The translations under genes and the position numbers were made by a program. From Bacilli bacterium (GTDB taxonomy: Bacteria > Bacillota_I > Bacilli_A > RFN20 > CAG-826): 64,000 nt of DNA. The notes beneath the pieces are model-generated. The model had not been told where the DNA came from, ran no database searches, and was given only the letters and a program-made list of their open reading frames with translations. How positions within the stretch are numbered: position 1 is the first letter of the stretch; every line of letters begins with the position of its first letter. Of the stretch, positions 9,513 to 63,907 are shown in pieces. The stretch spans positions 44,224 through 108,223 of the forward strand of contig JAZLKX010000028.1 in NCBI GenBank assembly GCA_045597865.1, written 5' to 3'.

Positions 9513-9553
9513 AGTGCAGTTATTTTAACACATAGACATACAAACGCAAATAA

Positions 9554-9582
9554 AAAAGCGGAGCTACGAAGTAACCCCGCTA
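9554..9582 (-). terminator. terminator at end of the catabolic operon
   Basis: AGCGGG...CCGCT stem followed by TTTTT on minus strand. Confidence 0.6.
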
Positions 9583-9599
9583 ATTTATATTTAGAGCAA

Positions 9600-10610: not shown

Positions 10611-10621
10611 TTTCTATACTC

Positions 10622-15309: not shown

Positions 15310-15773
15310 AATCCTGCTCCTTTCTTAGCAGCTTTTAAGACTGCTTCAACGATTGCTTGATAACCTGTACATCTGCAAAGGTTACCAGACATTTCTTCTC
15401 TAACTTGTGCCTCGGTTGGATGAGGATTGTGTTTGAGAAGTGAGTAGGCTGCAATGATCATTCCTGGAGTACAGAAACCACATTGTGAGCCACCCATTTC
15501 AGCAAATGCTTGTTGTAAAACATCAAATGCTTTTGTTTCTTTTAAACCTTCAATTGTAACGAAGTCATGGCCAATTGCGTTTGCAACTGGAAGTAAGCAT
15601 GAGTTAACGGATTTGCCATCCATTAAAACAACACATGCTCCACATGAGCCTTCACCACATCCTTCTTTGGTGCCATTGAGGTGTAAAACGTCTCTAACAA
15701 CATCAAGGAATCTCATGGATGGATCGACATCAATTTCAACAGGTTTTCCATTCATATTAAAATTAATTTTCAT
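15303..15773 (-). CDS. xanthine dehydrogenase-family 2x[2Fe-2S] subunit
   Basis: GCGEGSCGAC, QCGFCTPG, GNLCRCTGY. Confidence 0.93.
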   Translation of the reverse strand: MKINFNMNGKPVEIDVDPSMRFLDVVRDVLHLNGTKEGCGEGSCGACVVLMDGKSVNSCLLPVANAIGHDFVTIEGLKETKAFDVLQQAFAEMGGSQCGFCTPGMIIAAYSLLKHNPHPTEAQVREEMSGNLCRCTGYQAIVEAVLKAAKKGAGLW

Positions 15774-18956: not shown

Positions 18957-18958
18957 TG

Positions 18959-48532: not shown

Positions 48533-48549
48533 GCCCATACAAGATGGGC
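48533..48549 (-). terminator. riboswitch-controlled terminator
   Basis: GCCCAT-CTTGT-ATGGGC + TTTGTTCTTCTTT; 5' arm CCCATCT can alternatively pair with AGATGGG at the P1 3' strand. Confidence 0.8.
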
Positions 48550-48568
48550 AAAGTAATAAAAAAATAAC

Positions 48569-48648
48569 CCATCTACCAAGCTTTAGCACCTTACTATTTG
48601 CAGGTTGCTGACGGGTCATTGAGCTTGTCTCTCGCCGTCTCTTTATGG
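48569..48648 (-). ncRNA. SAM-I (S-box) riboswitch, compact P4-less form
   Basis: CCAT-AAAGAG-ACGG-CGAGAG-ACAAG-CTC-AATGA-CCCGT-CAGCAACC...AGGTGCTAA-AGCTTG-GTAG-ATGG: P1, kink-turn P2, GCAACC/GGTGC P3 and CAAGC/GCTTG pseudoknot; TGaTATAAT promoter at 48656-48664. Confidence 0.88.
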
Positions 48649-48748
48649 TGCATATATTATATCACAAATAAGCTCCAATTTCCATTAAATCTGGCATAGG
48701 GATTATTATTACTTACAAAACAAAAGTTTTCCGTGTATAATAAAGCCT

Positions 48749-50837: not shown

Positions 50838-52970
50838 TTAAAGTATCTTTGCTTTTAATTTGATTTTGCCATCGCTGACATGCTTAAGAACATCATAAAT
50901 AATGACTGTTCCCCAAGAGTCAATTTTACAGTATGCGAGGGCTTGACCAAGCATCTCATTTTCGTCTGGATCATTATCAGTTGGATCAATATGATTTCTT
51001 ACGAGTAAAGCCTTAAAAAGATCGAGACAAATGCCACCGTTATAAACAAGAGCGCCTTCTTTGTGATAATCAAGCGAAAATCTTAAATCAAAAGGTAAAT
51101 TAATGGAATCATAATAGGCTTGAACGTCTTCATCATCACATAAAGTTGGTTGAACAACCTTAAGTGAGCCTCTTCCATTGAATTTTGTGCCATAGAATGA
51201 ACCAGAAGTAAAGAAATCAAGTAAGTCAACGACATTGTCATTAAAGTTTTGAACAAAATTAATAAGATCAGCGTCTACTTCAGGATGAGAAGCATAAAGT
51301 CTCACAAACTCATCCATTCTTGTTTTCTCAAAGTTTTGATTAAATACAACTACTTTGTAGTTCTTTGCCATTGGATTAATGCCAAAGTCAATTAATTGCT
51401 CTTTTAGAGTCTTAAAAAGGCTAAATTCAGGGTTTATATAGCCATCTATAGATGGATGACCAATAAATTCATAATGAGAACAGTTTCCGCCTCTTCCTTT
51501 GGCGAAATCATGTTTAGTTAAATCATAGCCTCTTCCAACAATATGCATTGAGTATTGAGTAACTACTTGTTGCCAAGGATGAGCATCTTTCATAAGAGGA
51601 ACTGGATTTTGAATTGATTCAAAGTCAAAGAAAACAAGATAATCAATATCATCGTTTAAATAATCTCTATGAAGGATTGAATTCATAAGATCCATATGAA
51701 TGACATAGTCAAACCCTTTTCCTAACCATTCAGTTTGGAATTTAATTTGGCTTCTAGCGTTTCCATATTTAATAACGCCATCTTTTTCACTTTCTTCTTT
51801 GTATTCATTCACTACTGAAGTTGGAATATCAGAAATATGTTCAATTCCAGCTTCAATAAGTTTCTTTGAACGTTGCCAAGTGCCACCATAAATATTCCAT
51901 CTTGTTAACTTAAATATTGAATTTGGATTATCTGCGTCATTAAAACAAGAGAGTAAGAAAGGACATTTTCCGCCTTTAACACATTCATAATGTTTATTTG
52001 GTTCAACTTCAAACTTAGTCGCGATAAATCTGATGTCTGAAATAACTTCTTCAATAGGAGTAATTTTAGGGTTACCATCCTTGTCTATCTTCTGATAGGC
52101 ATCTGAATCAAAGTAAGTAATAATTGGTACAATTTCAGTTTCTTCTTTGTTTTTCTTTAAATTAAGGTCAAATGATAACCTAAAAAGGTTATTAACGTCT
52201 TCATTACTTAAATTTGGGTAATTAACATCGCTTGAAGAGAATTTAAATTCTCTATTTAGGTGTAAATAGCCTAATCTAGCGATGTTAATACCTTCTTTGG
52301 TATAAATGTAGTACTGGAATAAAAGATCGTATAAATACGGGATTTTAATTCCGGTATGAATTTCATACTCTTTTTTCGGATGAGTGAAAGGTGAATTGGA
52401 ACCTTTGGCCTCAATTAGGGTAAAGGTTCCATTATCTTCTTTCACGAGTACATCAAATCTTGCTCTTAAGTCGTTATGCTCAACTTGGCCTTCAAAGATA
52501 ACTTTGACTGATGGATCTTTTAAGTATTGTTTGGTTTTCTCAACAATGTATTTTTGGTTAGTGGTTTCCACTCCAAAATCATTAACGTCGCATCTACGAC
52601 ATTTGTCTTCACCATAAATAAGTTCAATGTATCTTCTAGATAATCTCGCGGTTACTTGAGTATCTTCATATTTCTTAAGTAATCCATAAAGTGGATTTTC
52701 TTGTTGATGCTTGATGATAAGTTTTTCAATATCTTCTTTAAGATATAGATAATCTTTCATTATTTCGATGATATCAAATGTTTTATCAACACTTGGATCA
52801 TCGTTATCATCAAAAGCATCATCGACAATAGCTTCTTCAATGTCTTCTTTAGAGCCAAACTCTAAATAAGACTCGATGAGTCTAAGAAGCGTATTATCAT
52901 CTATTGATGCTTTTGCAAGATATGGACATTTTCTTGCAACATAATCTTTAATTATGCTTTTTGTGATCAT
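50838..52970 (-). CDS. DUF2779-type protein: PD-(D/E)XK (Cas4/RecB-like) nuclease + RNase H-like domain
   Basis: RFDVL...LIEAK, DL.FQYY, C....CPF...C, FFDFES, QYS.H, FE, DL, SLK.V, YC..D. Confidence 0.75.
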   Translation of the reverse strand: MITKSIIKDYVARKCPYLAKASIDDNTLLRLIESYLEFGSKEDIEEAIVDDAFDDNDDPSVDKTFDIIEIMKDYLYLKEDIEKLIIKHQQENPLYGLLKKYEDTQVTARLSRRYIELIYGEDKCRRCDVNDFGVETTNQKYIVEKTKQYLKDPSVKVIFEGQVEHNDLRARFDVLVKEDNGTFTLIEAKGSNSPFTHPKKEYEIHTGIKIPYLYDLLFQYYIYTKEGINIARLGYLHLNREFKFSSSDVNYPNLSNEDVNNLFRLSFDLNLKKNKEETEIVPIITYFDSDAYQKIDKDGNPKITPIEEVISDIRFIATKFEVEPNKHYECVKGGKCPFLLSCFNDADNPNSIFKLTRWNIYGGTWQRSKKLIEAGIEHISDIPTSVVNEYKEESEKDGVIKYGNARSQIKFQTEWLGKGFDYVIHMDLMNSILHRDYLNDDIDYLVFFDFESIQNPVPLMKDAHPWQQVVTQYSMHIVGRGYDLTKHDFAKGRGGNCSHYEFIGHPSIDGYINPEFSLFKTLKEQLIDFGINPMAKNYKVVVFNQNFEKTRMDEFVRLYASHPEVDADLINFVQNFNDNVVDLLDFFTSGSFYGTKFNGRGSLKVVQPTLCDDEDVQAYYDSINLPFDLRFSLDYHKEGALVYNGGICLDLFKALLVRNHIDPTDNDPDENEMLGQALAYCKIDSWGTVIIYDVLKHVSDGKIKLKAKIL

Positions 52971-53643
52971 ATGTAATATCTATGAATTCGATTCCGTCTT
53001 CGACAGGATGTAATTTCTTGTCCAAGACTTCTTCGTGGTATTCGAATTTAGGTTTGATAATATCAAGAATTAAACAAGAGTCTTCTGGTTTAATTTCTTC
53101 ATATTTTCCTTGGGACGCCATAACAACTTCTAAGAAGTGTTTTACGCAGTCATAGAAGCTTTCAAGGGTGTCTCCACTAGCGTACTTATGTAATGAAAGT
53201 TTCGCATTGAAATCTTTAATCGCACCACCAATTGATTCATAAATCATTCCTAAAGAAGCATAAGCTTCCTCTCTAGATATAGAAGTGAATGATGTCCAAT
53301 GGAAATGAGGAAGCTTTGCTTCTATCATATGTGGTAATGAATCATGAATTGCTAAACCTTCAATGATTTCAACTCTTTCATCAATAAGTTTTCCGTCATT
53401 AATCGCGAGTTGGAGAACAGAGTATTGAAGAAGAATATCAAATGACTTTAAAGAGTATTCTTTCATATACTCTGTATTGCCTCTAAATTCTTCACCTTCA
53501 TTGAAGAGTTTGAAAACATGTTCATTTAAAAATGAAACTAAGTTATCGTATTCTCTTTTCGCTACTGTGAAAAAGTTTTCAAAATCATCACTTAAATCTT
53601 CTTTTTGATCGTATACTTCTTCTAAAACTTTATTTTCTTCCAT
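52948..53643 (-). CDS. hypothetical protein
   Basis: 231-aa ORF with GAGGA RBS, overlapping the DUF2779 gene. Confidence 0.7.
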   Translation of the reverse strand: MEENKVLEEVYDQKEDLSDDFENFFTVAKREYDNLVSFLNEHVFKLFNEGEEFRGNTEYMKEYSLKSFDILLQYSVLQLAINDGKLIDERVEIIEGLAIHDSLPHMIEAKLPHFHWTSFTSISREEAYASLGMIYESIGGAIKDFNAKLSLHKYASGDTLESFYDCVKHFLEVVMASQGKYEEIKPEDSCLILDIIKPKFEYHEEVLDKKLHPVEDGIEFIDITYDHKKHN

Positions 53644-53749
53644 AAGTATATCCTCGCGTATTCGTTAACTTAAATTTTACCAAAGATTTAAGTTCGCCTC
53701 AATAAAAATAAAAGCCGTTGAGATTATCTCTCAAACGGCTCTAATTCAA

Positions 53750-53784
53750 GTGATAGAAGCTAGTCTTTGTATCACCCGATTTTT
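53750..53784 (-). repeat. hairpin element A, copy 1 (terminator at 53713-53740)
   Basis: AAAAATCGG-GTGATA-C-AAAG-ACTAG-CTTC-TATCAC overlapping the CDF stop codon. Confidence 0.85.
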
Positions 53785-54961
53785 AGTGAATATAACTGTT
53801 ATCAATCTTAATAACTGTTTTGTATTTTGAATCTTTATTAGAAATTGCTTCCTTAAGTGCTTCCACTATTTCGTCTTGATTCATGTTGCTTCCTAGTGGA
53901 ATGACCACATCAAATAAGACATTGGTGTGTGTTGGTCCTTTAACCATTCTTAAATCATGAAAAGTGAGTTCTTTATGGAATTTTCCTAGTGTTTTCGCGA
54001 TTATTTCCTTTAAAACCTTGAGTTCTGGATTCTTTGTATCGACAGGATCCATATGGATTGTAAGTTCAATTCCGTACTTACTTCCAACTTCACTTTCAAT
54101 GTTATCAATTAGGTCATGGGATTCCATCACATTGACATATGCATCAACCTCAACATGGAGGGTGATGAATATCTTGGTCTCTCCATAAGAATGAACGACA
54201 AGGTCGTGAATTCCAAGAACACCTTTGTATGATTTAACATCTTTAAGAATTGCCTTAACAAAGTCAGTGTCAGGAGTTAACCCAATAAGTGGAGATGTTG
54301 TCTCCATAACAAGTTTGATACCAGAGTAAAGAATGAATAATGCTACTGCGATAGAAACAGCAGGATCAAGCCACCATAAATCTGGGAAGAAATAAATAAT
54401 GATAGCAGTCACTAAAACTGCAGAAGTTGAAATAGCGTCGTTAATTGAATCTTGCATATTAGCTTTTAGGCTAACTGAATCAATTGCCTTGCCCATACCT
54501 CTATAGAAAAGACCAAGAAGTATCTTTCCGACAATTGCAACACCAAGAACAATAAAGGATGCAATTGTGAATGTTACATTAACATCATGGTTGATTAAAG
54601 CCATGATAGATGTGTAACCAAGCACAATTGCGACCGCAATAATGATAAAAGAAACAATCATGCCTGTAACATACTCTACACGCTCATGTCCATATGGATG
54701 TTTCTTGTCTGCAGGTTTTGATGCAATCTTAAAACCAAATAATGAAACAATATTGCTAACTAAATCAGTTAAGTTATTGATTGCATCTGAAATAATGGCT
54801 CTTGAACCTGCAAGAATACCAATTAAGAATTTAACGCCAAATAAAACAAGGTTAACAATAATGCCACCAATGGAGGCTACAAGTCCGTGTTTTTCACGTA
54901 CTTTCTTATCCTTAACGTTCTTATAATCTTTAATAAAGATTTTTCTTATTAAATTTATCAT
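53783..54961 (-). CDS. cation diffusion facilitator transporter (FieF-like)
   Basis: SDAINNLTD, PAD..HPYGHER.EY, D..ND, HDL.VH.YG. Confidence 0.92.
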   Translation of the reverse strand: MINLIRKIFIKDYKNVKDKKVREKHGLVASIGGIIVNLVLFGVKFLIGILAGSRAIISDAINNLTDLVSNIVSLFGFKIASKPADKKHPYGHERVEYVTGMIVSFIIIAVAIVLGYTSIMALINHDVNVTFTIASFIVLGVAIVGKILLGLFYRGMGKAIDSVSLKANMQDSINDAISTSAVLVTAIIIYFFPDLWWLDPAVSIAVALFILYSGIKLVMETTSPLIGLTPDTDFVKAILKDVKSYKGVLGIHDLVVHSYGETKIFITLHVEVDAYVNVMESHDLIDNIESEVGSKYGIELTIHMDPVDTKNPELKVLKEIIAKTLGKFHKELTFHDLRMVKGPTHTNVLFDVVIPLGSNMNQDEIVEALKEAISNKDSKYKTVIKIDNSYIH

Positions 54962-55034
54962 GGCAACATTTTAACACTTCTTATTAAATAAGTTCATATT
55001 ATTTTCAAATCTAATCTATAAGAAAACTCATATA

Positions 55035-55069
55035 GTCATAGAAGCTAGTCTTTGTATGACCCGATTTTT
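55035..55069 (-). repeat. hairpin element A, copy 2
   Basis: AAAAATCGG-GTCATA-C-AAAG-ACTAG-CTTC-TATGAC; differs from copy 1 only by one compensatory base pair. Confidence 0.85.
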
Positions 55070-55200
55070 CAAAAATGCCTTTCGTTTTCATCCTTAATGG
55101 TAATAAGCAATTTATAATGAGACCAATTTAGATGTTGCCACAGTGTAGCAACAAAGTATATTTTAGAAAATTTTACCATTCGAGATAGTTCTGAAAAGGA
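55069..55200 (-). pseudogene. DUF1016 (YhcG) N-terminal domain remnant
   Basis: Own translation SFSELSRMVKFSKIYFVATLWQHLNWSHYKLLITIKDENERHF*; aligns with FSRRNLARM...LSWSHY..LL......ERIFY of 55958..56911. Confidence 0.8.
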
Positions 55201-55368
55201 AAATAAATTATAATAAATATAATTTAATACCCTTTTAATTTTGCTAACAAAAAACTTCTCTTAATTCTGTTTTATTGAATGTGTATCAACTTCTATGTGT
55301 AAAATTACCCATATAAGTTTTCCAAAAGAATATTTTCACCACAAGACTCTTTCAAATGATGGATTTCA

Positions 55369-55507
55369 AAACCCCCCGAAATCGGTGGGTTTAAACGAGT
55401 CGAATTCGAGGCGGTTAAAATTTCAAAATCGATAAGTATTCCTCAAACCCGTCGAAATCGGTGGGTCTAAACCAGTCAAATTTGACTAATTTAATTTAGT
55501 CAAATTA
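55369..55507. repeat. tandem array of ~6 imperfect 24-bp palindromes
   Basis: AAACCCCCCGAAATCGGTGGGTTT / AAACGAGTCGAATTCGAGGCGGTT / degenerate unit / AAACCCGTCGAAATCGGTGGGTCT / AAACCAGTCAAATTTGACTAATTT / partial unit. Confidence 0.8.
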
Positions 55508-55543
55508 ATTTTTAAATTTCAAAAAGTATTTTCAAAAACAAGA

Positions 55544-55632
55544 TTGCTTTTTAAAAATAAAATGTAATAATTATTATTAGTCAGTAGGACCGATTACGGC
55601 CGGACTATTTGCTCCTGAAAAGGAGCTTTTTT
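55544..55632 (+). ncRNA. candidate small RNA 1 (promoter, hairpin, terminator)
   Basis: TTGCTT..TGtAATAAT, hairpin TAGTC..GACCG-ATTA-CGGCC..GACTA, terminator GCTCCT-GAAA-AGGAGC-T6; no ORF. Confidence 0.5.
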
Positions 55633-55723
55633 ATATCAAATTTTGCTCTTTTTGAAACTCTTCGATCTTTTGAGCGAATTCTTGTTCCTTCGCGAGGATC
55701 TCTTCTCATATTGCTCATCTATA

Positions 55724-55758
55724 CCCATAGACTGTAATAGTCGTATGGGCCGAATTTT
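55724..55758 (-). repeat. hairpin element A, copy 3
   Basis: AAAATTCGG-CCCATA-C-GACT-ATTAC-AGTC-TATGGG, then a truncated terminator half. Confidence 0.85.
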
Positions 55759-55771
55759 CATAAAAATACTA

Positions 55772-55848
55772 TTTACAAAAAACTGACGAATTGTACAATA
55801 TAAGTGAACCCAAGGTAGCGGATTAAGCTACAATCGGTTCTTTTTTTT
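55772..55848 (+). ncRNA. candidate small RNA 2 / orphan attenuator
   Basis: TTTACA-16-TACAAT, then GAACC..GTAGC-GGATTAA-GCTAC..GGTTC-T8; no downstream ORF. Confidence 0.45.
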
Positions 55849-55957
55849 ATTTCTTTTTAAATTTGTTTAAATAATTATTCACTATATCCTTAGGATAGAT
55901 ACTAACAAGTTTGTTAATATTAGCATTATAATCATTTATTAAAAAATCAATCATACA

Positions 55958-56911
55958 TCATTTGTTCATAAGCTTTTGAATTTCTAATTTCAATAACTCT
56001 TTATCCGGCAGTTGAGTTAAATATTTTCTCACAAAAATTTGATTAGAAATTGAACCTAAAGCATATTCAATTTGAATATCGTCTTTGTCCTGGCACAAAA
56101 CTATACCGATTGGATCACAGTCTGTGTCTTGATTTACTTCTTTTTTATAATAATTAAGATAAAAATTTAATTGCTCAATTGAATTATTGGTAATCTTTCC
56201 TTTCTTAAGTTCTATTAATACAAAGCATTTTAAATTTGTGTTATAGAAAACCATATCCATAAAATAAGATTTGTTATTTATTACTATTCTTTGTTGCTCA
56301 CCAATGAATGCAAAACCTTTTCCGAGTTCGAGCAAAAACATTTTTAAATGCTTAACTAATTCACTCTCCAAGTCTTTTTCTTTGAAATCATCTTTAAGAT
56401 TTAAAAACTCAAAAACTAACGGATTTTTTAAAAATACATTTTCTTTAATGTCTTTTGTTATTAGTTTGTTCTTTGGCGTTGTATCCAATTCTCCAAGCAA
56501 TACTCTTTCATATAATGATGATTTTATTTGCCTTCTAAGTTCACGAACACTCCAACACGCCCTTGAACACTCGCGTTCATAAAAAATTCTTTCCTCATAA
56601 TTTTCAAGAGCTAATAGTTCAGAATAATGTGACCAAGATAAATTGGGCGACACTGTCGCCCCATCACTATAATCTTTATAAAAGATTATCATTCTCGCAA
56701 GATTTCTTCTTGAAAAGCCTTCACCATACTTTGGTCTTAATTCTTTTTCAAGTTCATTAAGTGGCACATTTCTAGAGTTACAGATTATTTCTCCAATTTT
56801 AAGATAGCTTTTAAGTAATACTATGTTAACTGTTGAAACAACATATGATTGGGCTTCTTTAACAACCAACTCAATTTGATTAATAATTTCTTTGTTTTGA
56901 ATCTCTTTCAT
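55958..56911 (-). CDS. DUF1016/YhcG-family PD-(D/E)XK nuclease
   Basis: GFS..NL..M, LSWSHY, WSVRELRRQI...LYER, FLLELGKGFAF, D..FY...LKCFVLIELK, PIGIVLC. Confidence 0.92.
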   Translation of the reverse strand: MKEIQNKEIINQIELVVKEAQSYVVSTVNIVLLKSYLKIGEIICNSRNVPLNELEKELRPKYGEGFSRRNLARMIIFYKDYSDGATVSPNLSWSHYSELLALENYEERIFYERECSRACWSVRELRRQIKSSLYERVLLGELDTTPKNKLITKDIKENVFLKNPLVFEFLNLKDDFKEKDLESELVKHLKMFLLELGKGFAFIGEQQRIVINNKSYFMDMVFYNTNLKCFVLIELKKGKITNNSIEQLNFYLNYYKKEVNQDTDCDPIGIVLCQDKDDIQIEYALGSISNQIFVRKYLTQLPDKELLKLEIQKLMNK

Positions 56912-57041
56912 TAAATGTCCTCCTAATTATAATTTCAGGAGAATTTGTCATTTCCGATAAAAAACTTTCTAAGTCACTAAGTGACTTGTTTTTTTATAAT
57001 AAAAGCCATAAGAGATTTCTTTCTCATATGGCTCATCTATA

Positions 57042-57074
57042 CCCATAGACTGTAATAGTCGTATGGGCCGATTT
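57042..57074 (-). repeat. hairpin element A, copy 4 (terminator at 57004-57033)
   Basis: AAATCGG-CCCATA-C-GACT-ATTAC-AGTC-TATGGG overlapping the KilA-N stop codon. Confidence 0.88.
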
Positions 57075-57882
57075 ACTGCAATAATTTAGGCTTATAACTA
57101 GTAAATAATAGCTTTTCCTTATTGGCTTCTTCATTCAATAATACCAAGCGATCAGATTGTGGAATTCCCTTTTCAATTAACTTAGAATTAAGAAGTTCAA
57201 GATTTGAGAGAATTGTTAATTCAATAACATTTGCGAAATCACGAATATTACCATTTTGATTTGGATTTGCTTGTTTCCATTCATTTGCAGTTACCCCAAA
57301 CAAAGCAACATTAATAACATCTGCTTCTGATGCATATATAAAAGAAATCTGTTGTGGTTTTAAATCAATCTGAATAATGTTTTTCTTAATAGCGTCTGTT
57401 TGAAGCAGATAATTCAAACTTGATAGTTGGCGTTTTCCAGCCCAATCAAGACGTTTGTTTTCTTCTTCTTTTAAACGTTGATATTCACGAATAAGTAAGA
57501 CCTTGAATTCTGCAGATATCCAACTTGCGAATTCAAAAGCAATATCTTTGTGTGCGTATGTACCGCCACCATTTCTTCCAGATTTGACTCTAAGGCCGAT
57601 TGCATTTGTAAGATTAATCCATTTTGCTGGTGACATTGTAAAAGCATTCGTTCCTGGTTTGGTTTTAAACATATCGAAATCGATAGGTTTGAATTCTGAG
57701 TTGAATATAAATTCCCAAAAATGCAAAAATTCTAATGTATCAATTCTTCTCAACCAGTTACAAATTACAATGAATGGCTCTTCTGAATTTTTAGATCTTG
57801 CGATATCTGTAAGTGAGATATAATCATCTTCGTTAACTCCAGTAATGTTAATGTCCAAATTTTTAATTGTAAGTTTTTTCAT
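57073..57882 (-). CDS. KilA-N domain DNA-binding protein
   Basis: DYISLTDIA, NWLR...TLEFL..WE, GR.GGGTYAHKDIAFEFASWIS.EF, YASEAD..N.ALFG.TA..W, GNIRD. Confidence 0.9.
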   Translation of the reverse strand: MKKLTIKNLDINITGVNEDDYISLTDIARSKNSEEPFIVICNWLRRIDTLEFLHFWEFIFNSEFKPIDFDMFKTKPGTNAFTMSPAKWINLTNAIGLRVKSGRNGGGTYAHKDIAFEFASWISAEFKVLLIREYQRLKEEENKRLDWAGKRQLSSLNYLLQTDAIKKNIIQIDLKPQQISFIYASEADVINVALFGVTANEWKQANPNQNGNIRDFANVIELTILSNLELLNSKLIEKGIPQSDRLVLLNEEANKEKLLFTSYKPKLLQ

Positions 57883-58168
57883 AATTGAAACTCCTTTATT
57901 AAGTATGAGAAGAAAAAGAATTCAGTGCGTCATGCACTTAATCCTTCCTTCATCTTTCTCTACAAATATTATATTAAAAATAAGGCGAAAATTGAAGTTA
58001 AAATTAAAGAAATTAAATTATACAAAGTATAATTTAAAATCATACGTATTAAATATATAAATTAAATTTTATTATATTTAATACTCTTTCAAATTTGTTA
58101 ATAAATATTGTAATGATTTTTAAATTAATAAGCCGTGTGAGATGTATTTCTCATATGGCTCATCTATA

Positions 58169-58203
58169 CCCATAGACTGTAATAGTCGTATGGGCCGATT
58201 TTT
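58169..58203 (-). repeat. hairpin element A, copy 5 (terminator at 58131-58160)
   Basis: Near-identical to copy 4 over ~70 bp including the terminator. Confidence 0.88.
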
Positions 58204-58270
58204 CATCAAAATCCTAAGGTTTTCCTTGATATTTATATAATGGAAGGGTATTTAACCGTCATTGTGAATA

Positions 58271-58966
58271 TTAGAATCTCATTCCGCATCCATACATAAT
58301 AAGAATGGCTACACCTATAATTCCACCCATTACTAGAATTCCAATACCGACAATAATTAGAACGCTCTTTATAACATACTTTCTATCATTTGAAGCTTCT
58401 TTAGATAACGATATATTAACAACATTAGTAATGAGTTTATTTTCTAATGTGGCTTTTGTCATTTTTCCAGTTATATCGTTATCTTCTAGAGATGAGGTAT
58501 CAACCTCTTGTTTCATATATGCCTCGATAGTTTGTTTTACATTAAGTAACTTTTTTTGTGTTTCTTGAGAAATTGAATCTGTATACATTTCAAAAACAGG
58601 ACCAGCTAGGTTCCATTCCTTAGTAAGAACATAACTTCTTCTGGAATTGAATGATAAAGAATATGATGAAACATCACCATTTTTTGTAAAATAAGTAATC
58701 GTGATAGTCCAAATAAGAGGATTTCCAACGGTTGATAATGGAGCAGATCCTCCTATAATACCAATTCTACCTGATGTAGATATTGCACCGCCACTTACTG
58801 GTGTTCTTAAAATGTTATTTCTAACTCCTGAATTAGACACCTGAACGGATGATATATTTTCTATTGGGCATATGAATTGCTCAGCAAAATGATAGATGAC
58901 AACAAGGGCTGTGGCTTTTACCGCAGCTACTGCAACCTTAGAATTGAGTAAATCAATTAAAGACAT
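58271..58966 (-). CDS. hypothetical protein with C-terminal TM
   Basis: 231-aa ORF with AAGGAG RBS. Confidence 0.65.
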   Translation of the reverse strand: MSLIDLLNSKVAVAAVKATALVVIYHFAEQFICPIENISSVQVSNSGVRNNILRTPVSGGAISTSGRIGIIGGSAPLSTVGNPLIWTITITYFTKNGDVSSYSLSFNSRRSYVLTKEWNLAGPVFEMYTDSISQETQKKLLNVKQTIEAYMKQEVDTSSLEDNDITGKMTKATLENKLITNVVNISLSKEASNDRKYVIKSVLIIVGIGILVMGGIIGVAILIMYGCGMRF

Positions 58967-59126
58967 AAAGTTCTCCTTTCGTAATGAGCGAACTGCTCTA
59001 TGAAAGACATCAGTAGCTAAACCTCTTCAATTATATCACTTATATTTTTTATATCATCTTAAATAGTGTTTTCGTTTGTTGGCTCGCGTTACAATGTTTT
59101 CATTAGCCTTATTCAATGATATGGTC

Positions 59127-59162
59127 AAAAATTCGGCCAATACGACCTCTTCGGTCTATTGG
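59127..59162 (+). repeat. hairpin element A, copy 6 (followed by palindrome B at 59174-59221)
   Basis: AAAAATTCGG-CCAATA-C-GACC-TCTTC-GGTC-TATTGG. Confidence 0.85.
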
Positions 59163-59596
59163 TGATTATTAGAAAATATCCAGGATTTTAAAGGGATTTT
59201 CCCTGAAATTCCTGGATATTTCTTATTGAAGCACTGTAAGGAATAGGTGCTTAAACTAAGCGTATTTATTAAATAGCGAGTTTACCTTATATTAGTAATC
59301 TAAAATTCAAAAGTTATAGGTTCTAAATAATTATAACTATCAGTGTGGTCTCATTAACAATACATATTAACCAGACCACTTAGTAATCCAAAATATTAAA
59401 AGACTCAATTCATCCTTGCGGCTGAACCCAGTCTTTTCTTATACCTCTATTTTTACTGTTTATAAGTTTTTGGGCATTTTTGTGCTTTTTATTTACAAAG
59501 TAAATAATTTCGTTCACGAAAAATGGGAATAGATTTTTTGTACGCGTGTTATGATTTATATAACCCATAAACATATCAATGCGAAAGGATAAATAT

Positions 59597-60586
59597 ATGA
59601 ATATCGATGAATTAATTAATTTACTTATTAACAAACAAATCAACACTCGAAATAATGCGACTTATTGTGTTAATCAAATGCTTTTAGACATGAATATGTT
59701 TTTTGGCAAATATATTAGCGATTATATAGAAGAAAACAAAAAGCAAAAGAACTGCAAAAAATTAACAATCAGCAAAATTTCTGAAGAACTTACAAAACAG
59801 CTAGGTAAGGGATACTCCAGACAAAATTTGTCAAAGATGTTAATTTTTTATACTATGTATAAAAAATGCTCGGAGGTTCCGAGCAATTTGTCTTGGTCAC
59901 AAATATGCGAACTCCTATATATCAAAAATATCAACGAACGTAAATTCTATGAAATTGAATGTGTAAAACAAAGATGGTCATCAACAGAATTGAGAAGGCA
60001 AATTCAAACTGGCTATTATCAAAGAGTACTGCTCGGTTCGAAAGAAAATATTCAAACAAAAGCAAACCAATTGTCCACTATTGGAAATGAAATTATTGAA
60101 CCTAGAGATATTTTGGTAGACCCCATTGTCTTAAATTTCTTTAAACAAAAAACAAACCTTAAAGAAAAAGATATCGAAACTGGAATTATTGGCCATTTAA
60201 AAGAATTTCTTCTTGAGCTTGGCTCTGGATTTAGATTCATCGACAATCAATATCAATTCAATATATCAAACAAGAAATATTTTGTTGATTTAGTATTCTA
60301 TAATGAAGTGCTTAAATGCTACGTTCTAATAGAGCTAAAGTCAGCACCGTTCCATAAAGATGTTATTGGCCAAATCAATACCTACCTCAACTATTTCAAA
60401 AGCAACATAAACAAACCTGGAGACAACGATCCAATTGGCATTGTTATGTGCACTGATTTTGAACATATACAAGTTGAATATGCATTAGGGAATATATCGA
60501 ATCAAATATTCGTGACAAAATACATTACCCATCTTCCAAAGAAAGAAGATCTCGAAAGAGAATTATTATTAGCTCAAAAACGTTAA
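59597..60586 (+). CDS. second DUF1016/YhcG-family PD-(D/E)XK nuclease
   Basis: GKGYS..NL..M, LSWS, WS..ELRRQI, FLLELG.GF.F, DLVFY...LKCYVLIELK, PIGI; start MNIDE after AAAGGA. Confidence 0.92.
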   Translation: MNIDELINLLINKQINTRNNATYCVNQMLLDMNMFFGKYISDYIEENKKQKNCKKLTISKISEELTKQLGKGYSRQNLSKMLIFYTMYKKCSEVPSNLSWSQICELLYIKNINERKFYEIECVKQRWSSTELRRQIQTGYYQRVLLGSKENIQTKANQLSTIGNEIIEPRDILVDPIVLNFFKQKTNLKEKDIETGIIGHLKEFLLELGSGFRFIDNQYQFNISNKKYFVDLVFYNEVLKCYVLIELKSAPFHKDVIGQINTYLNYFKSNINKPGDNDPIGIVMCTDFEHIQVEYALGNISNQIFVTKYITHLPKKEDLERELLLAQKR

Positions 60587-60623
60587 AATTCGGCCCATAC
60601 GAGCAAAGAGAGTGCTCTATGGG
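60585..60623 (+). repeat. hairpin element A, copy 7 (followed by palindrome B at 60631-60678)
   Basis: AAAATTCGG-CCCATA-C-GAGCA-AAGAGAG-TGCTC-TATGGG overlapping the DUF1016 stop codon. Confidence 0.88.
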
Positions 60624-60753
60624 AATATAGAAATATCCAGGAATTTAAGTGAAAATCCCCAGAAAATCCTGGATATTTTAAAAGAATCATATATAAGACA
60701 TACAAAAACTCAATGACTTATTAGAAGAAAGAAATCTTCCTATTATTGAGTAA

Positions 60754-61671
60754 TTATATTTTTGAGTAGCCACAACCGCACGCTCCACAATGAGGGCAAA
60801 TAATCCAACCGCATTTTGGGCATATTTCCATATACAATGAATCTAAGTTCTGCTGGCACTTGTAACAATGGGTTACTCTTCTATTTAATTTTCTTAGTAT
60901 TCCTTTTGATCCGTATTTTCGTGTGTACTCCAAAACAGACTTATCTAAATCAGAATTGTTATAAATAACATCTTCCACTATATCTTTGTTGATACGGTAA
61001 TCGCCAACATCAACATAAAGTTGTATCCAAGCATTTTGTTCATCTATTATTTCAAGTGTTTTACGATGTTTAATGCCATATTTGTTCATAAGGTAGATAA
61101 TTGCCTTATCTTTAAATGTTTCACCTTCTTGAATGTCGTATATTAAATCGTAATCATAAATTGAAAGTTTATAGTTTTTAAATGTTGAGTTGTCACCGTC
61201 ATATGTAAAGCCTTGGTTTGCATCAAATTGTTTTACAACTTCAATATGTTTAATACCAATTACATTTTTACAATAATCACCAAGTAACGATTTTAATTCA
61301 TTTACTGATTTGCCATATACAATAGAAAAAACTTTTTCTGTTTGCTTACTAGTGCTTTCTAAATAAACGGCACCACCATAACTTATGTTATAAGCAAGGT
61401 TATTCAAAAAAGCCATCTTTATGCGTGGATTAATTGACTCAATACATTTCCCATCTATAAGCGGCAAGAAACAGTATTTGCATCTTGGTGTATTTGAATC
61501 AACGAGCTGATATTCCTTCAAAAACTCTTCTTCAGTAAGCGATTCAATAACATTAGGAGAAGAAACTTTTGCAAAACAAATTTTCCTGCAAGTTGAAAAT
61601 TGAATGATATTAACTACAACACAAAAATCTTGTTTGTTTGTATAAAGTGAATTTATTTCAATGTTAGCCAT
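60754..61671 (-). CDS. hypothetical protein with C-terminal Cys-rich zinc ribbon
   Basis: CYKC...CPKCGWIICPHCGACGC; AGGAG RBS. Confidence 0.7.
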   Translation of the reverse strand: MANIEINSLYTNKQDFCVVVNIIQFSTCRKICFAKVSSPNVIESLTEEEFLKEYQLVDSNTPRCKYCFLPLIDGKCIESINPRIKMAFLNNLAYNISYGGAVYLESTSKQTEKVFSIVYGKSVNELKSLLGDYCKNVIGIKHIEVVKQFDANQGFTYDGDNSTFKNYKLSIYDYDLIYDIQEGETFKDKAIIYLMNKYGIKHRKTLEIIDEQNAWIQLYVDVGDYRINKDIVEDVIYNNSDLDKSVLEYTRKYGSKGILRKLNRRVTHCYKCQQNLDSLYMEICPKCGWIICPHCGACGCGYSKI

Positions 61672-61685
61672 AAATGTCTCCTATA

Positions 61686-61916
61686 TTATATTGATTCATT
61701 CTCGGAATGTGTATACTCGCCTGTGGACATATTAACTTTAGTTGGGTAGCCATCTTTTATTTTGATTGTTAATGTTTTAACGATTGATCCTTCTTCAGTC
61801 GCAAAATAATTAATAGCTTCAATTAAACACGCTAGTAAATTTGCATACTGATTGTCATTCATTGTTTGTTTTTTTAAATGTTTCGTGAATAACTTAATTT
61901 TTTGTTTGTCTGTCAT
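61686..61916 (-). CDS. 76-aa hypothetical protein
   Basis: AGAGGT RBS before MTDKQK; probably co-transcribed with the zinc-ribbon gene. Confidence 0.55.
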   Translation of the reverse strand: MTDKQKIKLFTKHLKKQTMNDNQYANLLACLIEAINYFATEEGSIVKTLTIKIKDGYPTKVNMSTGEYTHSENESI

Positions 61917-62198
61917 AAATACCTCTTTTATTTTATGCGGGTGACCATAAGATATAAAACTTAGGCCACCCATATGTAAGGAGAGCTGTACGTTTTAAGT
62001 ACACTTATATTATACACTGGATATTTGACAAAATTTCGTTGTTATAGACTAAGTCTATAAAAATTCCTTGCTCTTCTAAACTTTCTATCACCTATCTTAG
62101 GAATTATATTAATATAATTCCGCCTATCTTATCCCTATAGTCCCTTCTCTTATTCTTTCCTAAATCTTCTTTTTGACATATATCAAATACATGGTCAG

Positions 62199-62238
62199 AA
62201 ATCGTACCCATACGAGCAAAGAGAGTGCTCTATGGGTA
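62199..62238 (+). repeat. hairpin element A, copy 8 (terminator at 62244-62273)
   Basis: AAATCGTA-CCCATA-C-GAGCA-AAGAGAG-TGCTC-TATGGG, same hairpin as copy 7. Confidence 0.85.
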
Positions 62239-62407
62239 AATAAAAAGACAAGGGTTCTAACTCCCTTGCCTTTAAAGATTATCTCCGTCTAAGAGATATT
62301 AATATTATACACCTAATTTGTTAAAAGAAAACCCACGCTCTAGAAACGTGGGCTCGTCCGAGGAAAGACGTATAGTCTGGATAAGTCTCAATAAGGAGTA
62401 AAGAGAG

Positions 62408-63202
62408 CTAATCCCTTAAATTTAATTTTTTAAGTATATTGAGCGATACATCCTTCTTTGCTTCAACCTTAGTTGTGCCATAACCTTCATCTTTTAATTG
62501 AATTGTTTTGGAACCTTTTCTGTAGGTTACAATACATTTACATTTCCACATCTTCCAGCCATCAATGTCATACATTTTGTTATCAAAAGAATACTTTGCA
62601 TCTAAAAGAATACGTTTATCCACTAATTCTTTGAGCTTACTTGTAGCTTCATTTAATTCTATTTGAGAATCAACATAGCATTTAATTCTTTCTTTTGCTT
62701 TTAAGACTCCTTTTGAATCAAGCAACTTTTCAACAACCGGAACAATCTTCTTCATATCGTAATTTGAATCTATGGCCATCGCTCCAATGATTGCCTCAAT
62801 TAGATCAGCTTTAACTTTTGTAGTGTTCACCACATTATTTTTCTTATCTGCATCTCCTAAATACATATAGCCTGCTAAACCTAACTTATCTACAATTCCT
62901 GCTAGATATTCATTAGAAGTTAAGTCTTGTTTGTACTCGGTGAAATTGAATTCTGTTAAGTTACCTTCAGAATATAATTCCTTGGGTTTTTCCATTGAAA
63001 TCCCCATAAATTCACGAGTAAATATGTTGATTACGCAATATTCGAGGATTGTATCGCCAATGAATTCCAAGAGTTCATTTGACTCTCCTCCGTGATCAAC
63101 AACATAGCTTTTTCTTTTGAATGCTTGATATAGCAAATCTTTGTTATTAAATTGATAGCCAATCAATTCCATGACTTTTTCATTATTTTGTTTTAAATCC
63201 AT
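62408..63202 (-). CDS. ribonuclease III-family protein (accessory, divergent) with dsRBD-like C-terminus
   Basis: IGYQF....LL.QAF...SY, NELLEFIGD, ADLIEAIIGA..ID, G.G.TK.EAK. Confidence 0.85.
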   Translation of the reverse strand: MDLKQNNEKVMELIGYQFNNKDLLYQAFKRKSYVVDHGGESNELLEFIGDTILEYCVINIFTREFMGISMEKPKELYSEGNLTEFNFTEYKQDLTSNEYLAGIVDKLGLAGYMYLGDADKKNNVVNTTKVKADLIEAIIGAMAIDSNYDMKKIVPVVEKLLDSKGVLKAKERIKCYVDSQIELNEATSKLKELVDKRILLDAKYSFDNKMYDIDGWKMWKCKCIVTYRKGSKTIQLKDEGYGTTKVEAKKDVSLNILKKLNLRD

Positions 63203-63416
63203 ATCTAAAACCTCTTTCTATCCCAAAGAAAGAATCCATGATTAACAAAACGACCAATGGATATTAGTTTCAAATAATTTTTGTAGTCACATCCATATAA
63301 ATAAGAGCCTAGAACTTTTACTTATATAAATCAGATTACTCGATTAGTTCAAACCAATTTCTTATTGGGATGCACTTATTCTATCAAAAATATACCCATA
63401 TATCAATTATGGGCAT

Positions 63417-63452
63417 AAAAAATCGGATGATACGAGAACTAGTCTTTATCGG
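63417..63452 (+). repeat. hairpin element A, copy 9 (terminator-like hairpin at 63461-63483)
   Basis: AAAAAATCGG-ATGATA-C-GAGA-ACTAG-TCTT-TATCGG; same ACTAG loop as copies 1 and 2; degenerate CCCATA/TATGGG hairpin just upstream (63395-63413). Confidence 0.75.
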
Positions 63453-63593
63453 TATAGAAAAGCCGGCTTCACTTTAGCCGGCTCTGACAAGTTTTTACTT
63501 GTAGGAAGATATTACATGCCTTATCTTCGAATTTTTAGAAAAAGAAAAGCAAAAAGTGCTTGGTAATCTTTTTGCTTTTCAATGTTAGAAAGA

Positions 63594-63824
63594 TTATTTT
63601 TCTCTTAATGGTGCACCAACATTATCTCTGAACGCGCCGGTTGCGATTTTTAGTAAATCAATTAACCAGCCTAAGAGAAAGCAGCCACCTGTTATAGCGA
63701 ATAAGAGTCCTCTACCAATTCTACCAACGTAGAAATTGTGTAAACCAATAATTCCACCGAAAGCACAAAAAATTAATGCTTTACGTTTGCTCTTATCACT
63801 TGTTTGTGTAACGTAAGAAGACAT
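63594..63824 (-). CDS. TM2-domain membrane protein
   Basis: KSK..ALI.C.FGG..GLH.FYVG....G.L...T.G....GW.ID; GGGAGG RBS. Confidence 0.88.
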   Translation of the reverse strand: MSSYVTQTSDKSKRKALIFCAFGGIIGLHNFYVGRIGRGLLFAITGGCFLLGWLIDLLKIATGAFRDNVGAPLREK

Positions 63825-63850
63825 AAACTTTCCTCCCTTATAATATTTTT

Positions 63851-63883
63851 ATTCTATAGAGAGAGAGAGAGAGAGAGAGTCAA
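63851..63883 (-). promoter_or_regulatory. promoter with (TC)11 microsatellite spacer
   Basis: TTGACT (63883-63878), 21-bp spacer of TC repeats, TAGAAT (63856-63851). Confidence 0.75.
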
Positions 63884-63907
63884 GCACTTTCACTATGTGA
63901 GTGCTAA
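63881..63907 (-). promoter_or_regulatory. CIRCE-like (HrcA) operator
   Basis: TTAGCACTC-N9-AAGTGCTTG: one perfect arm, exact 9-bp spacer, second arm 6/9, overlapping the -35 box. Confidence 0.6.

What the first reader, a model, noticed from the sequence alone, without database searches (positions are those of the whole stretch)
53713..63907. Synthesis: candidate modular, diversifiable defence/accessory cassette system
Several features co-occur within 10 kb. The cargo is hairpin-delimited and typical of conflict islands (2.5 DUF1016 nucleases, KilA-N, extra RNase III, zinc-ribbon protein, TM2 protein, CDF). There are palindromic variable segments in two DNA-binding families, a variant array, two orphan small-RNA units and a slippage promoter. 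The element-A leader (AAATCG/AATTCG) equals the centre-right part of the KilA-N-type palindromes (CG-AAAT-CG / CG-AATT-CG). This could mean one protein recognises both, or it could be chance in AT-rich DNA. The link between the parts is inference only.
Basis: inference. Interest (0 to 1): 0.75.

Follow-up and report, generated by a model that had tools for sequence, protein, structure and literature searches.

The report
Hairpin-punctuated defence gene cassette array
The last 10 kb of the window is part of a 17-kb row of small toxin-antitoxin and anti-phage-type gene units, each separated by the same newly seen 45-base hairpin element at which related gut bacteria have gained, lost or swapped units, so it behaves like an integron although no integron machinery is present.

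Summary
Partly confirmed. Nine copies of one about 45-nt element lie in window 53.7-63.5 kb and none in the first 53.7 kb. Each has an A-run plus WTCGG leader, then a 10-bp hairpin with an invariant ATA-C-GA/TC-TAT core and a bulged C. The stem covaries strongly. Each copy separates a unit of 0-2 genes and is usually followed by a terminator-type hairpin.

The array runs over the contig end into another contig. It spans about 17 kb and holds 15 of the genome's 17 copies. Cargo is conflict-type: DUF1016 (PADLOC PDC-S02), KilA-N (PDC-S22), and TA and Abi genes in relatives.

The element occurs in 3 of 37 genomes of the genus, 0 of 150 other genomes sampled from the order, and no Rfam family. Comparisons show unit gain, loss and swapping with breaks at the element's edges, one element-only insertion, and one hybrid element.

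No recombinase sits in the array.

Best reading: a clade-private, hairpin-forming DNA junction and recombination site (integron attC / REP-like logic) with an unknown enzyme. The scan has noted similar repeat-delimited arrays on other DNA.

The parts
53746..53790 (-). Element A copy 1 (leader + hairpin). Its A-run begins in the CDF stop codon.
   Evidence: Model R1, 51.9 bits, E 5e-9; sequence
53701..53741 (-). Second hairpin of unit 1, terminator type (stem then T-run)
   Evidence: Fold; coordinates
53783..54961 (-). CDF cation-efflux gene (392 aa). It is the conserved end of the array in all three element-bearing genomes.
   Evidence: Pfam PF01545 and PF16916; 95% and 89% aa identity in G017 and G008, 67% or less elsewhere in the genus
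55031..55075 (-). Element A copy 2, about 70 nt upstream of the CDF start. It is kept at this place in G017 and G008.
55369..55503 (.).
   Evidence: 55438-55704 is 91% identical to G017 C22 662-929
55438..55704 (-). The 3' remnant of a 138-aa gene plus its downstream region. The gene is intact in G017 (L048 345-761). It is cut off here about 20 nt after the hairpin of element copy 3.
55720..55764 (-). Element A copy 3
   Evidence: R1, 60.1 bits
55958..56911 (-). DUF1016/YhcG PD-(D/E)XK nuclease a (317 aa)
   Evidence: Pfam PF06250 and PF17761; PADLOC PDC-S02, E 1e-103
56996..57034 (-). Second hairpin (terminator type) of unit 4
57038..57082 (-). Element A copy 4. The KilA-N stop codon lies in its leader.
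57073..57882 (-). KilA-N domain protein (269 aa)
   Evidence: Pfam PF04383; PADLOC PDC-S22, E 1e-109
58125..58161 (-). Second hairpin of unit 5
58165..58209 (-). Element A copy 5. It is the last minus-strand copy; the orientation switches after it.
   Evidence: R1, 60.8 bits
58271..58966 (-). 231-aa protein of no known family with a hydrophobic C-terminus. It lies between the two oppositely oriented halves of the array.
   Evidence: no Pfam, PADLOC or PHROG match
59122..59165 (+). Element A copy 6
59166..59593 (+). Conserved non-coding leader, including the 44-nt hairpin at 59176-59219. It is 91% identical to a stretch upstream of a different gene on contig C37.
   Evidence: L025 14033-14497 against window 59593-59128
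59579..60586 (+). DUF1016/YhcG nuclease b (335 aa)
60579..60627 (+). Element A copy 7. Its A-run begins in the stop codon. It is followed by hairpin 60633-60676.
60754..61973 (-). Two-gene unit: a 305-aa protein with C-terminal Cys-X2-Cys pairs and a 95-aa protein, neither in a known family
   Evidence: contigs of 3 public runs join 60753 to 62242 without this unit
62192..62240 (+). Element A copy 8 (leader variant), followed by hairpin 62244-62273
   Evidence: R1, 37.7 bits
62408..63202 (-). RNase III-domain protein (264 aa) with an uncharacterised C-terminal part
   Evidence: Pfam PF14622 and PF00636; phrog_28637
63412..63456 (+). Element A copy 9, followed by hairpin 63461-63483
   Evidence: R1, 51.8 bits. 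The single-sequence fold does not recover its first hairpin.
63594..63824 (-). TM2-domain membrane protein (76 aa)
   Evidence: Pfam PF05154
63859..63878 (.). (GA)10 run about 35 nt upstream of the TM2 start. The assembly breaks here. The last 141 nt of the window overlap the reverse complement of the end of contig C37.
   Evidence: one search reports reads cut at 63843-63888

Best explanation
Window 53.7-64 kb is the window-side part of an accessory gene-cassette array of about 17 kb. The array continues over the contig end into contig C37. It is built of self-contained units of 0-2 genes, mostly conflict-type, with their own promoter regions and terminators.

The units are separated by a clade-private element of about 45 nt. 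Each copy has 4-5 A followed by WTCGG, then a 10-bp hairpin. The hairpin's core (ATA, a bulged C, GA ... TC, TAT) is invariant, and its outer and inner base pairs covary. A second, terminator-type hairpin usually follows.

I think the element acts on DNA. It is the junction at which units are inserted, deleted and exchanged, most likely as a folded single-strand or cruciform recombination site. The enzyme would act in trans and is not encoded in the array (integron-attC / REP logic). Ordinary homologous recombination between copies probably contributes. The second hairpin insulates each unit transcriptionally.

SHOWN: the element, its covariation, its clustering, its narrow distribution, the unit differences with breaks at its edges, one element-only insertion, and one hybrid element.

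INFERRED: that it acts as DNA, that it acts in folded form, and that a trans-acting enzyme exists.
For: STRUCTURE. In 14 copies of this genome, 97.1% of 140 pair cells are paired. Five of 10 pairs change on both sides, and 0 of 500 shuffles reach the covariation score. Sliding the partners gives 23-41% paired. In 36 copies from three genomes the figure is 97.2% of 358 cells, on an alignment fitted to the model. Six of 7 two-hairpin units fold better than all 200 shuffles, with z from -3.6 to -5.9.

CLUSTERING. Fifteen of the genome's 17 copies lie in about 17 kb of a 1.74-Mb genome.

POLARITY INDEPENDENT OF GENES. All copies on a contig point one way:
- L025: 6 of 6 minus.
- L057: 7 of 7 plus, although most genes there are on the minus strand.
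- L058: 5 of 5.
- L048: 2 of 2.
- L059: 4 of 4.
- The window: 5 minus, then 4 plus, with one switch.

JUNCTION BEHAVIOUR.
- The CDF unit is shared by three genomes from the first A of its upstream element to its stop codon, with three different upstream neighbours.
- The single element before CDF in G008 has the upstream flank of one G017 copy and the downstream flank of another. G017 carries at least one whole unit between those two copies.
- Downstream of rpoC, G000 and G017 have an insertion of about 90 nt consisting only of the two-hairpin unit. G008 and G042 have the empty site.
- At a locus on contig C1, a 104-nt terminator-plus-element block is 93% identical in G000 and G017. The flanks differ on both sides, and one break lies exactly at the outer end of the A-run.
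- Contigs of 4 public runs from 3 studies have loose ends with several different sequences starting at 59128 and 60585, the starts of two A-runs. They also have joints that remove single units: 60753>62242 in 3 runs, 62296>63458, 55758>56999 and 60579>63429.

No Rfam family matches.
Against: - No recombinase gene lies in or beside the array. The six PF00589 hits of G000 are on other contigs. There is no Y1 transposase in G000 or G017. Serine recombinases occur only on contig C57.
- No recombinase is shared by just the three element-bearing genomes. The third Xer-like gene of G017 has no orthologue in G000.
- Breaks on the 3' side of the hairpin scatter over about 1-20 nt. This fits illegitimate or homologous events better than one fixed cut.
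- The hybrid element and the deletions between direct copies are equally what RecA would give.
- A second island in the same genus is punctuated by a different private repeat that looks like an ordinary terminator. No special structure may therefore be needed.
- The polarity of each event (gain or loss) is mostly unknown.
- The public-run contigs are short. Joint sides are 20-63 nt and reads were laid at 88% likeness, so some joints may come from related species or from repeats.
- Only three species carry the element.
Confidence: 0.47

Rival explanations
1. Passive punctuation. The two-hairpin unit is a lineage-specific terminator/insulator module, or a 3' RNA stability or processing element. 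It travels with genes circulating in this clade's accessory gene pool. Copies are kept alike by gene conversion. All unit gain and loss is ordinary RecA recombination or illegitimate deletion between short repeats.
For: - The region holds 18 terminator-like hairpins against 3.8 +/- 1.9 in shuffles.
- Units sit at the 3' ends of genes in nearly all cases.
- The second hairpin has a T-run.
- A different private repeat that is a plain terminator punctuates another island: 6 copies in 8 kb of G042, 3 in G000 and 2 in G017.
- No recombinase was found.
- Breaks 3' of the hairpin are imprecise.
Against: - The first hairpin has no T-run in the sense orientation.
- In many copies it lies antisense to the gene it follows. 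Examples are most copies in L057 and window copies 8 and 9.
- An invariant core with a bulged base, beside covarying flanking pairs, is more than a terminator needs.
- Copies keep one polarity per contig regardless of gene strand.
- The unit inserted alone behind the existing rpoC terminator.
Confidence: 0.3
2. Selfish miniature element. The unit is a REP- or MITE-like mobile sequence that spreads by itself and piles up in a permissive, gene-poor island. It marks unit borders only because it lands in intergenic DNA.
For: - The element-only insertion of about 90 nt behind rpoC.
- The REP-like anatomy: a conserved single-stranded leader plus an imperfect palindrome with an extrahelical base.
- Subfamilies with different second hairpins.
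Against: - No Y1/RAYT transposase in G000 or G017.
- Only 17 copies, 15 of them in one island.
- No terminal inverted repeats or clear target duplication at the rpoC site.
- It does not explain the hybrid element or the one-element-per-unit regularity.
Confidence: 0.15
3. One DNA-binding protein (KilA-N type) recognises both the element's leader and the AAATCG/AATTCG-centred palindromes. The palindromic segments and the 'variant array' diversify the system.
For: The palindromes at 55369-55503 and one inside the KilA-N gene do share the AAWTCG hexamer with the leader.
Against: - The hexamer count is at chance level: 90 against 79.2 +/- 8.7.
- G008 and G017 carry element arrays but have no KilA-N gene, and 8 genomes have KilA-N without the element.
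- The palindrome inside KilA-N is coding sequence.
- The array lies in a decayed spacer that is partly conserved in G017.
Confidence: 0.03

Closest known systems
Sedentary chromosomal integron cassette arrays and CALINs (clusters of attC sites lacking an integrase)
   Same: - A co-oriented structured site with extrahelical base(s), roughly one per unit of 1-2 genes.
- Sites are more alike within an array or lineage than between. I saw this stated for attC in passages of PMC4889954.
- Cargo is rich in toxin-antitoxin and anti-phage genes (abstract of bioRxiv 10.1101/2024.07.02.601686, seen in the listing).
- Some stop codons lie inside the site.
- Gene remnants are common.
   Different: - No IntI, attI or Pc. 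No tyrosine recombinase lies on the array's contigs.
- The site is a hairpin of 26-34 nt plus a 9-nt leader, not the longer R''-L''...L'-R' attC (recalled).
- Units carry their own promoter regions and terminators.
- Both gene orientations are common.
- The host is a member of Bacillota, where complete integrons were not found (passages of PMC4889954).
REP/BIME elements with RAYT transposases (REPINs)
   Same: A short conserved single-stranded leader directly 5' of an imperfect palindrome with an unpaired base. The location is extragenic, mostly at 3' ends of genes. Families are lineage-private.
   Different: - No Y1/RAYT gene in G000 or G017.
- 17 copies rather than hundreds.
- 15 of the 17 copies lie in one island.
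- One polarity per array.
- Association with swapping of whole gene units.
Neisseria Correia/dRS3 repeats with 'minimal mobile elements', and Xer-dependent pdif modules of Acinetobacter plasmids (both recalled, not read here)
   Same: Small repeats flank exchangeable gene modules without a dedicated recombinase gene in the module. Exchange uses host functions.
   Different: There is no dif-like 11-6-11 architecture. Orientation does not alternate. Loop length varies from 5 to 7 nt or more. No terminal inverted repeats of the Correia type are present.
Rho-independent terminators
   Same: The second hairpin of each unit is a stem followed by a T-run.
   Different: The first, conserved hairpin lacks a T-run in the sense orientation. 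It has an invariant core with a bulged C and a conserved 5' leader.

Membership tests
Integron (IntI + attI + attC cassettes) | Integron-type tyrosine recombinase gene at the head of the array | tested here: not met
   PF00589 gives 6 hits in G000, on contigs C25, C57 (two), C48, C13 and C46. None is on C28 or C37. ORF lists of both array contigs show none.
Integron (IntI + attI + attC cassettes) | One co-oriented, structured recombination site per cassette | tested here: met
   Nine sites bound 8 intervals in the window. Polarity is uniform on 5 of 6 contigs, with one switch in the window.
Integron (IntI + attI + attC cassettes) | attC architecture (paired R and L boxes, about 57-141 nt; recalled) | tested here: inconclusive
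   The element is a leader plus a hairpin of 26-34 nt. No Rfam family matched at gathering score or at E<=1. I did not run a dedicated attC model.
Integron (IntI + attI + attC cassettes) | Cassettes mostly promoterless and read from a common promoter | tested here: not met
   Units have their own terminators: 18 terminator-like sites against 3.8 expected. They also have conserved upstream regions and lie on both strands.
REP / RAYT | Conserved short leader 5' of an imperfect palindrome | tested here: met
   Alignment A1 and pair counts.
REP / RAYT | A Y1 (HUH) RAYT transposase in the genome | tested here: not met
   PF01797 gives 0 hits in G000 (96.9% complete) and 0 in G017. The 2 hits in G008 are on contigs without the element.
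REP / RAYT | Many copies dispersed over the chromosome | tested here: not met
   There are 17 copies, 15 of them in one stretch of about 17 kb.
Intrinsic terminator | Stem-loop directly followed by a T-run | tested here: inconclusive
   Met by the second hairpin of most units. Not met by the conserved first hairpin in its sense orientation. On the other strand a T-run follows only after 4 nt.
Xer/dif-type module sites | 28-nt site with two 11-nt arms and a 6-nt centre, alternating in orientation (recalled) | tested here: not met
   The centre varies in length and the copies share one orientation.
Cargo: PADLOC phage-defence candidates PDC-S02 and PDC-S22 | Match to the library's profile | tested here: met
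   DUF1016a and DUF1016b match PDC-S02 at E 1e-103 and 2e-97. KilA-N matches PDC-S22 at E 1e-109. These are candidates by genomic association; defence was not tested here.

The most novel reading that the evidence does not exclude
This is an integrase-less cassette system of Bacillota. A 45-nt folded DNA site would be recombined in trans by a housekeeping or cargo enzyme, for example XerC/D or the recurrent DUF1016 PD-(D/E)XK nuclease. That enzyme would shuffle self-contained defence and TA units. The system would be one instance of a wider, undescribed class of repeat-delimited arrays that this scan has also noted in CPR, DPANN and other gut lineages.
Probability: 0.2. Interest if true: 0.85.

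Novelty: new variant of a known kind. Interest (0 to 1): 0.6.

Why it matters
Complete integrons were not found in Firmicutes or Tenericutes (passages of PMC4889954). Small-genome gut Bacillota nevertheless have to renew their anti-phage and toxin-antitoxin repertoire. Here is a concrete, short, structured sequence at which that renewal visibly happens in nature. It comes with empty and filled sites, a hybrid site, and population variants.

This makes the question of how defence islands are assembled without a dedicated recombinase testable with a 45-nt oligonucleotide and a two-site reporter. The covariance model also gives a way to find such arrays. The cargo includes several proteins of no known family that sit where defence genes sit.

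Tried and rejected
- RNA evidence: the look-up of sequencing runs listed no RNA holder. Nothing can be said about expression.
- JGI metagenome scan with a degenerate element pattern: 3 stretches. None is a true copy; the best model score is 15.9 bits at E 0.057.
- GTDB genome scan with a pattern: 73 stretches. I ran the model on 18 of the 73 (the Bacillota-like ones) and only L111 matched, with 2 copies. Seven stretches are from horse-faeces MAG records that carry the arrays. The remaining 48 were not modelled; I take them for chance, since about 100 chance hits were expected (my own estimate).
- Plasmid and phage collections: no match to a 101-nt unit.
- Flanks of 10 DUF1016 loci in four element-free genomes: no element-like hairpin and no other shared flank repeat.
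- IS110-family genes are present in the 3 element genomes and absent from G042. The three G000 copies sit on contigs of 1.2-1.6 kb without usable flanks or overlaps, so no link could be made.
- The third Xer-like gene of G017 has no orthologue in G000; the best hit is 32% identical, to a Xer gene.
- A wobble-pair strand test was inconclusive. G-T and A-C cells occur at the same pair on both strands.
- Target-site duplication at the rpoC insertion: I could not find a convincing one.
- The promoter scan was uninformative: 53 sites against 55.3 expected.
- Orthologous empty sites in G000 for four further element sites of G017 and G008: their flanks are absent from G000.

Full report
ANATOMY. The window's last 10 kb reads, from left to right, as follows (E = element A, with its strand):
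- E1(-)
- CDF transporter
- E2(-)
- a decayed spacer holding palindromes and the 3' remnant of a 138-aa gene
- E3(-)
- DUF1016a
- E4(-)
- KilA-N
- E5(-)
- a 231-aa unknown protein
- E6(+)
- a 430-nt conserved leader and DUF1016b
- E7(+)
- a 305-aa Cys-rich protein plus a 95-aa protein
- E8(+)
- an RNase III-domain protein
- E9(+)
- a TM2 protein
- (GA)10
- contig end

This map rests.

Element A is 4-5 A followed by WTCGG and then a hairpin. The hairpin has three variable pairs, ATA/TAT, an unpaired C, GA/TC, two or three variable pairs, and a loop of 5-7 nt or more. A second hairpin of one of at least four types follows within about 3-10 nt. It usually carries a T-run.

MORE THAN CHANCE. A simple pattern gives 9 matches against 0.76 expected. 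The covariance model R1 finds 9 copies in the window, all after 53.7 kb.

The stem is kept by compensatory changes. In 14 copies, 97.1% of cells are paired, 5 of 10 pairs change on both sides, and 0 of 500 shuffles reach the covariation score. Slid controls give 23-41% paired. Thirty-six copies from three genomes give the same picture, on a model-fitted alignment.

Six of 7 units fold better than all 200 shuffles. The seventh, E9, does not, and its first hairpin is not recovered by the single-sequence fold.

No Rfam family matches at gathering score or at E<=1.

THE ARRAY IS LARGER THAN THE WINDOW. The window ends at the end of contig C28. Its last 141 nt equal the reverse complement of the end of contig C37, which is an assembly-graph overlap starting at the (GA)n run. 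Going into C37 there are six more copies, all in one orientation. They lie among:
- a 387-aa coiled-coil membrane protein;
- a 120-aa protein behind a 91% copy of the window's 59128-59593 leader;
- a 5'-truncated DUF1016 that is 91% identical to DUF1016b;
- an IS3 copy;
- a 240-aa membrane protein;
- two repeats with short hydrophobic ORFs.

In all, 15 of the genome's 17 copies lie in about 17 kb. The other two lie behind rpoC and at a locus on contig C1.

CARGO.
- DUF1016 matches PADLOC's candidate PDC-S02, and KilA-N matches PDC-S22.
- Arrays in the two relatives carry YafQ/ParE with an HTH partner, AbiEii, Abi_2, DUF4160 with DUF2442-HTH, a Phd/YefM-like gene, a weak HipA_C match, another DUF1016, and a TnpB insertion.
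- Passages of PMC9881135 list DUF1016 among annotations enriched next to restriction and BREX loci. Passages of PMC4316617 describe it on mobile elements.
- Several genes are remnants: the 138-aa gene here, an Abi_2 gene in G017, and two DUF1016 fragments.

DISTRIBUTION. The element is in 3 of 37 genomes of the genus: G000 with 16-17 copies, G017 with 13, and G008 with 4. It is in 0 of 150 other genomes drawn from 47 genera of the order. It is also absent from plasmid, phage and JGI metagenome collections.

The three carriers are each other's closest relatives. Their CDF proteins are 89-95% identical, against 67% for the next genome. Titled public records with true copies are horse-faeces MAGs. 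One of them is a 5.4-kb contig binned under another genus.

KilA-N is in 9 of 37 genomes, but not in G008 or G017. DUF1016 is in 18 of 37 genomes. Both are distributed independently of the element.

WHAT HAPPENS AT THE ELEMENT.
(i) The CDF unit is shared by the three genomes from the first A of E2 to the stop codon. Upstream of that A, all three differ. Downstream of the stop, G000 has E1 while the others have unrelated sequence.
(ii) The one element before CDF in G008 joins the upstream flank of one G017 copy to the downstream flank of another. G017 has at least the 138-aa/Phd unit between them. It has three more ORFs there if its contigs C16 and C22 join as their 98% end match suggests. This is a recombinant between two copies.
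(iii) Behind rpoC, G000 and G017 carry about 90 nt that consist of the two-hairpin unit alone. It lies between the rpoC terminator and the next gene's -10 box. G008 and G042 have the empty site.
(iv) On contig C1 a 104-nt terminator-plus-element block is conserved at 93%. G000 has an extra 551-aa ORF on one side and two small ORFs on the other. The second break lies exactly at the outer end of the A-run.
(v) Two truncated genes start 3 nt and about 20 nt after the hairpin.
(vi) Short contigs of four public runs from three studies show loose ends with several different sequences beginning at 59128 and 60585. They also show joints lacking single units: the 305+95-aa pair in 3 runs, the RNase III unit, DUF1016a, KilA-N and DUF1016b. 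Joint sides are only 20-63 nt and likeness was set at 88%, so some joints may stem from related species.

A SECOND PRIVATE REPEAT. In G042, the nearest genome without element A, the island upstream of CDF holds HEPN/MNT-like, AbiE and other units. It is punctuated by a different repeat of about 70 nt that is a plain terminator. All 6 copies lie within 8 kb, including both sides of CDF. G000 has 3 copies in an island on contig C1, and G017 has 2. In the G000 island two 75-aa ORFs are 95-98% copies of the last 66-69 residues of the neighbouring 447-aa gene. That is the footprint of repeated integration into that gene's 3' end. Private junction repeats are thus a habit of this genus, and element A is the structured, non-terminator version.

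THE ENZYME. None was found. Tyrosine recombinases lie on other contigs. There is no Y1 transposase in G000 or G017. Serine recombinases occur only on contig C57 of G000. IS110-family genes occur in all three carriers and not in G042, but in G000 only on tiny contigs without flanks. Five of the 6 DUF1016 genes of the three carriers lie inside arrays, while the sixth is on a 4-kb contig without the element. That is suggestive only, because 15 genomes have DUF1016 without the element.

- The shared hexamer is at chance level.
- The palindromic units lie in a spacer whose left part is conserved in G017, upstream of a Phd-like gene that G000 has lost. Operator remnants are a fair guess.
- The 'orphan small-RNA units' are element-plus-hairpin units without a gene.
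- The (GA)10 run sits about 35 nt before the TM2 start, where the assembly breaks. Phase-variable expression is plausible but untested.

MECHANISM AND VERDICT. Four observations point to a DNA-level junction or recombination site with integron/REP-like logic:
- the invariant core with a bulged base beside covarying pairs;
- a polarity that follows the array rather than the genes;
- the element-only insertion;
- the hybrid copy.

Three observations keep a passive terminator-plus-RecA reading alive:
- the missing enzyme;
- the imprecise 3' breaks;
- the terminator-type sister repeat.

The element family is new. The kind of thing, a repeat-delimited accessory cassette array, is known from integrons. 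This scan has also noted it on other DNA (those notes were not checked here, and one carries a later correction).

LIMITS. The data are MAGs only and the assemblies are fragmented at the repeats. Only three species carry the element. There are no RNA data. PADLOC 'PDC' names are candidates by association. REP, Correia and pdif features are recalled, not read. Supplements of the papers cited were not available; they could hold DUF1016 context data.

Noticed in passing
L159 (G042:C2) 13615-19310; G000 contig C1 36717, 38691, 43883; G017 contig C34 75440, 77416: A second private junction repeat of about 70 nt that looks like a terminator. It punctuates another TA/Abi island: 6 copies within 8 kb in G042, on both sides of the CDF gene.
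   Followed up: partly
G000 contig C1 36770-36997 and 38736-38963: Two 75-aa ORFs are 95-98% copies of the last 66-69 residues of the 447-aa gene at C1 32682-34025. Each follows a copy of the second repeat. This looks like tandem accretion of inserts at that gene's 3' end.
   Followed up: partly
L025 (G000 contig C37) about 9440-9620 and 12180-12360, minus strand: Two 83%-alike repeats of about 440 nt each hold a 19-codon hydrophobic ORF behind a Shine-Dalgarno-like AGGAGG. They resemble type I toxin modules. This was read by eye and by translation only.
   Followed up: partly
window 63859-63878: A (GA)10 run lies about 35 nt upstream of the TM2 gene, exactly where two contigs overlap by 141 nt. 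Repeat-length variation may both break the assembly and vary the gene's expression.
   Followed up: partly
window 59166-59593; L025 14033-14497; L057 75-321: A non-coding stretch of about 430 nt with several hairpins and no ORF is 91% conserved upstream of two different genes (DUF1016b and a 120-aa gene). It may be a portable promoter/leader or a small-RNA region.
   Followed up: no
window 60585-60753: A 169-nt block (element 7, its hairpin and 77 nt more) has several different neighbours on both sides in public-run contigs. Its last 70 nt recur upstream of two other genes (L025 15852-15914; L057 3-76).
   Followed up: no
L059 (G008:C2) 10272-11812: A TnpB-only IS605-family insertion (465 aa) sits inside the G008 array relative to G017, with local duplications around it.
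   Followed up: partly
L111: A 5.4-kb contig binned under a different genus title carries two element copies and an intact Abi_2 gene that is truncated in G017. Either it was mis-binned or it was transferred.
   Followed up: no
G000 contigs C43, C9, C27: Three IS110-family transposase genes sit on contigs of 1.2-1.6 kb. The family is present in the three element-bearing genomes and was not found in G042.
   Followed up: partly
window 48548-48651 (-): A SAM riboswitch, 48.3 bits, above Rfam's gathering score.
   Followed up: no
window 50838-53643 (-): A 710-aa DUF2779 protein and an overlapping 231-aa unknown protein form the left border of the array in G000. G008 has different genes on that side of CDF.
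   Followed up: no
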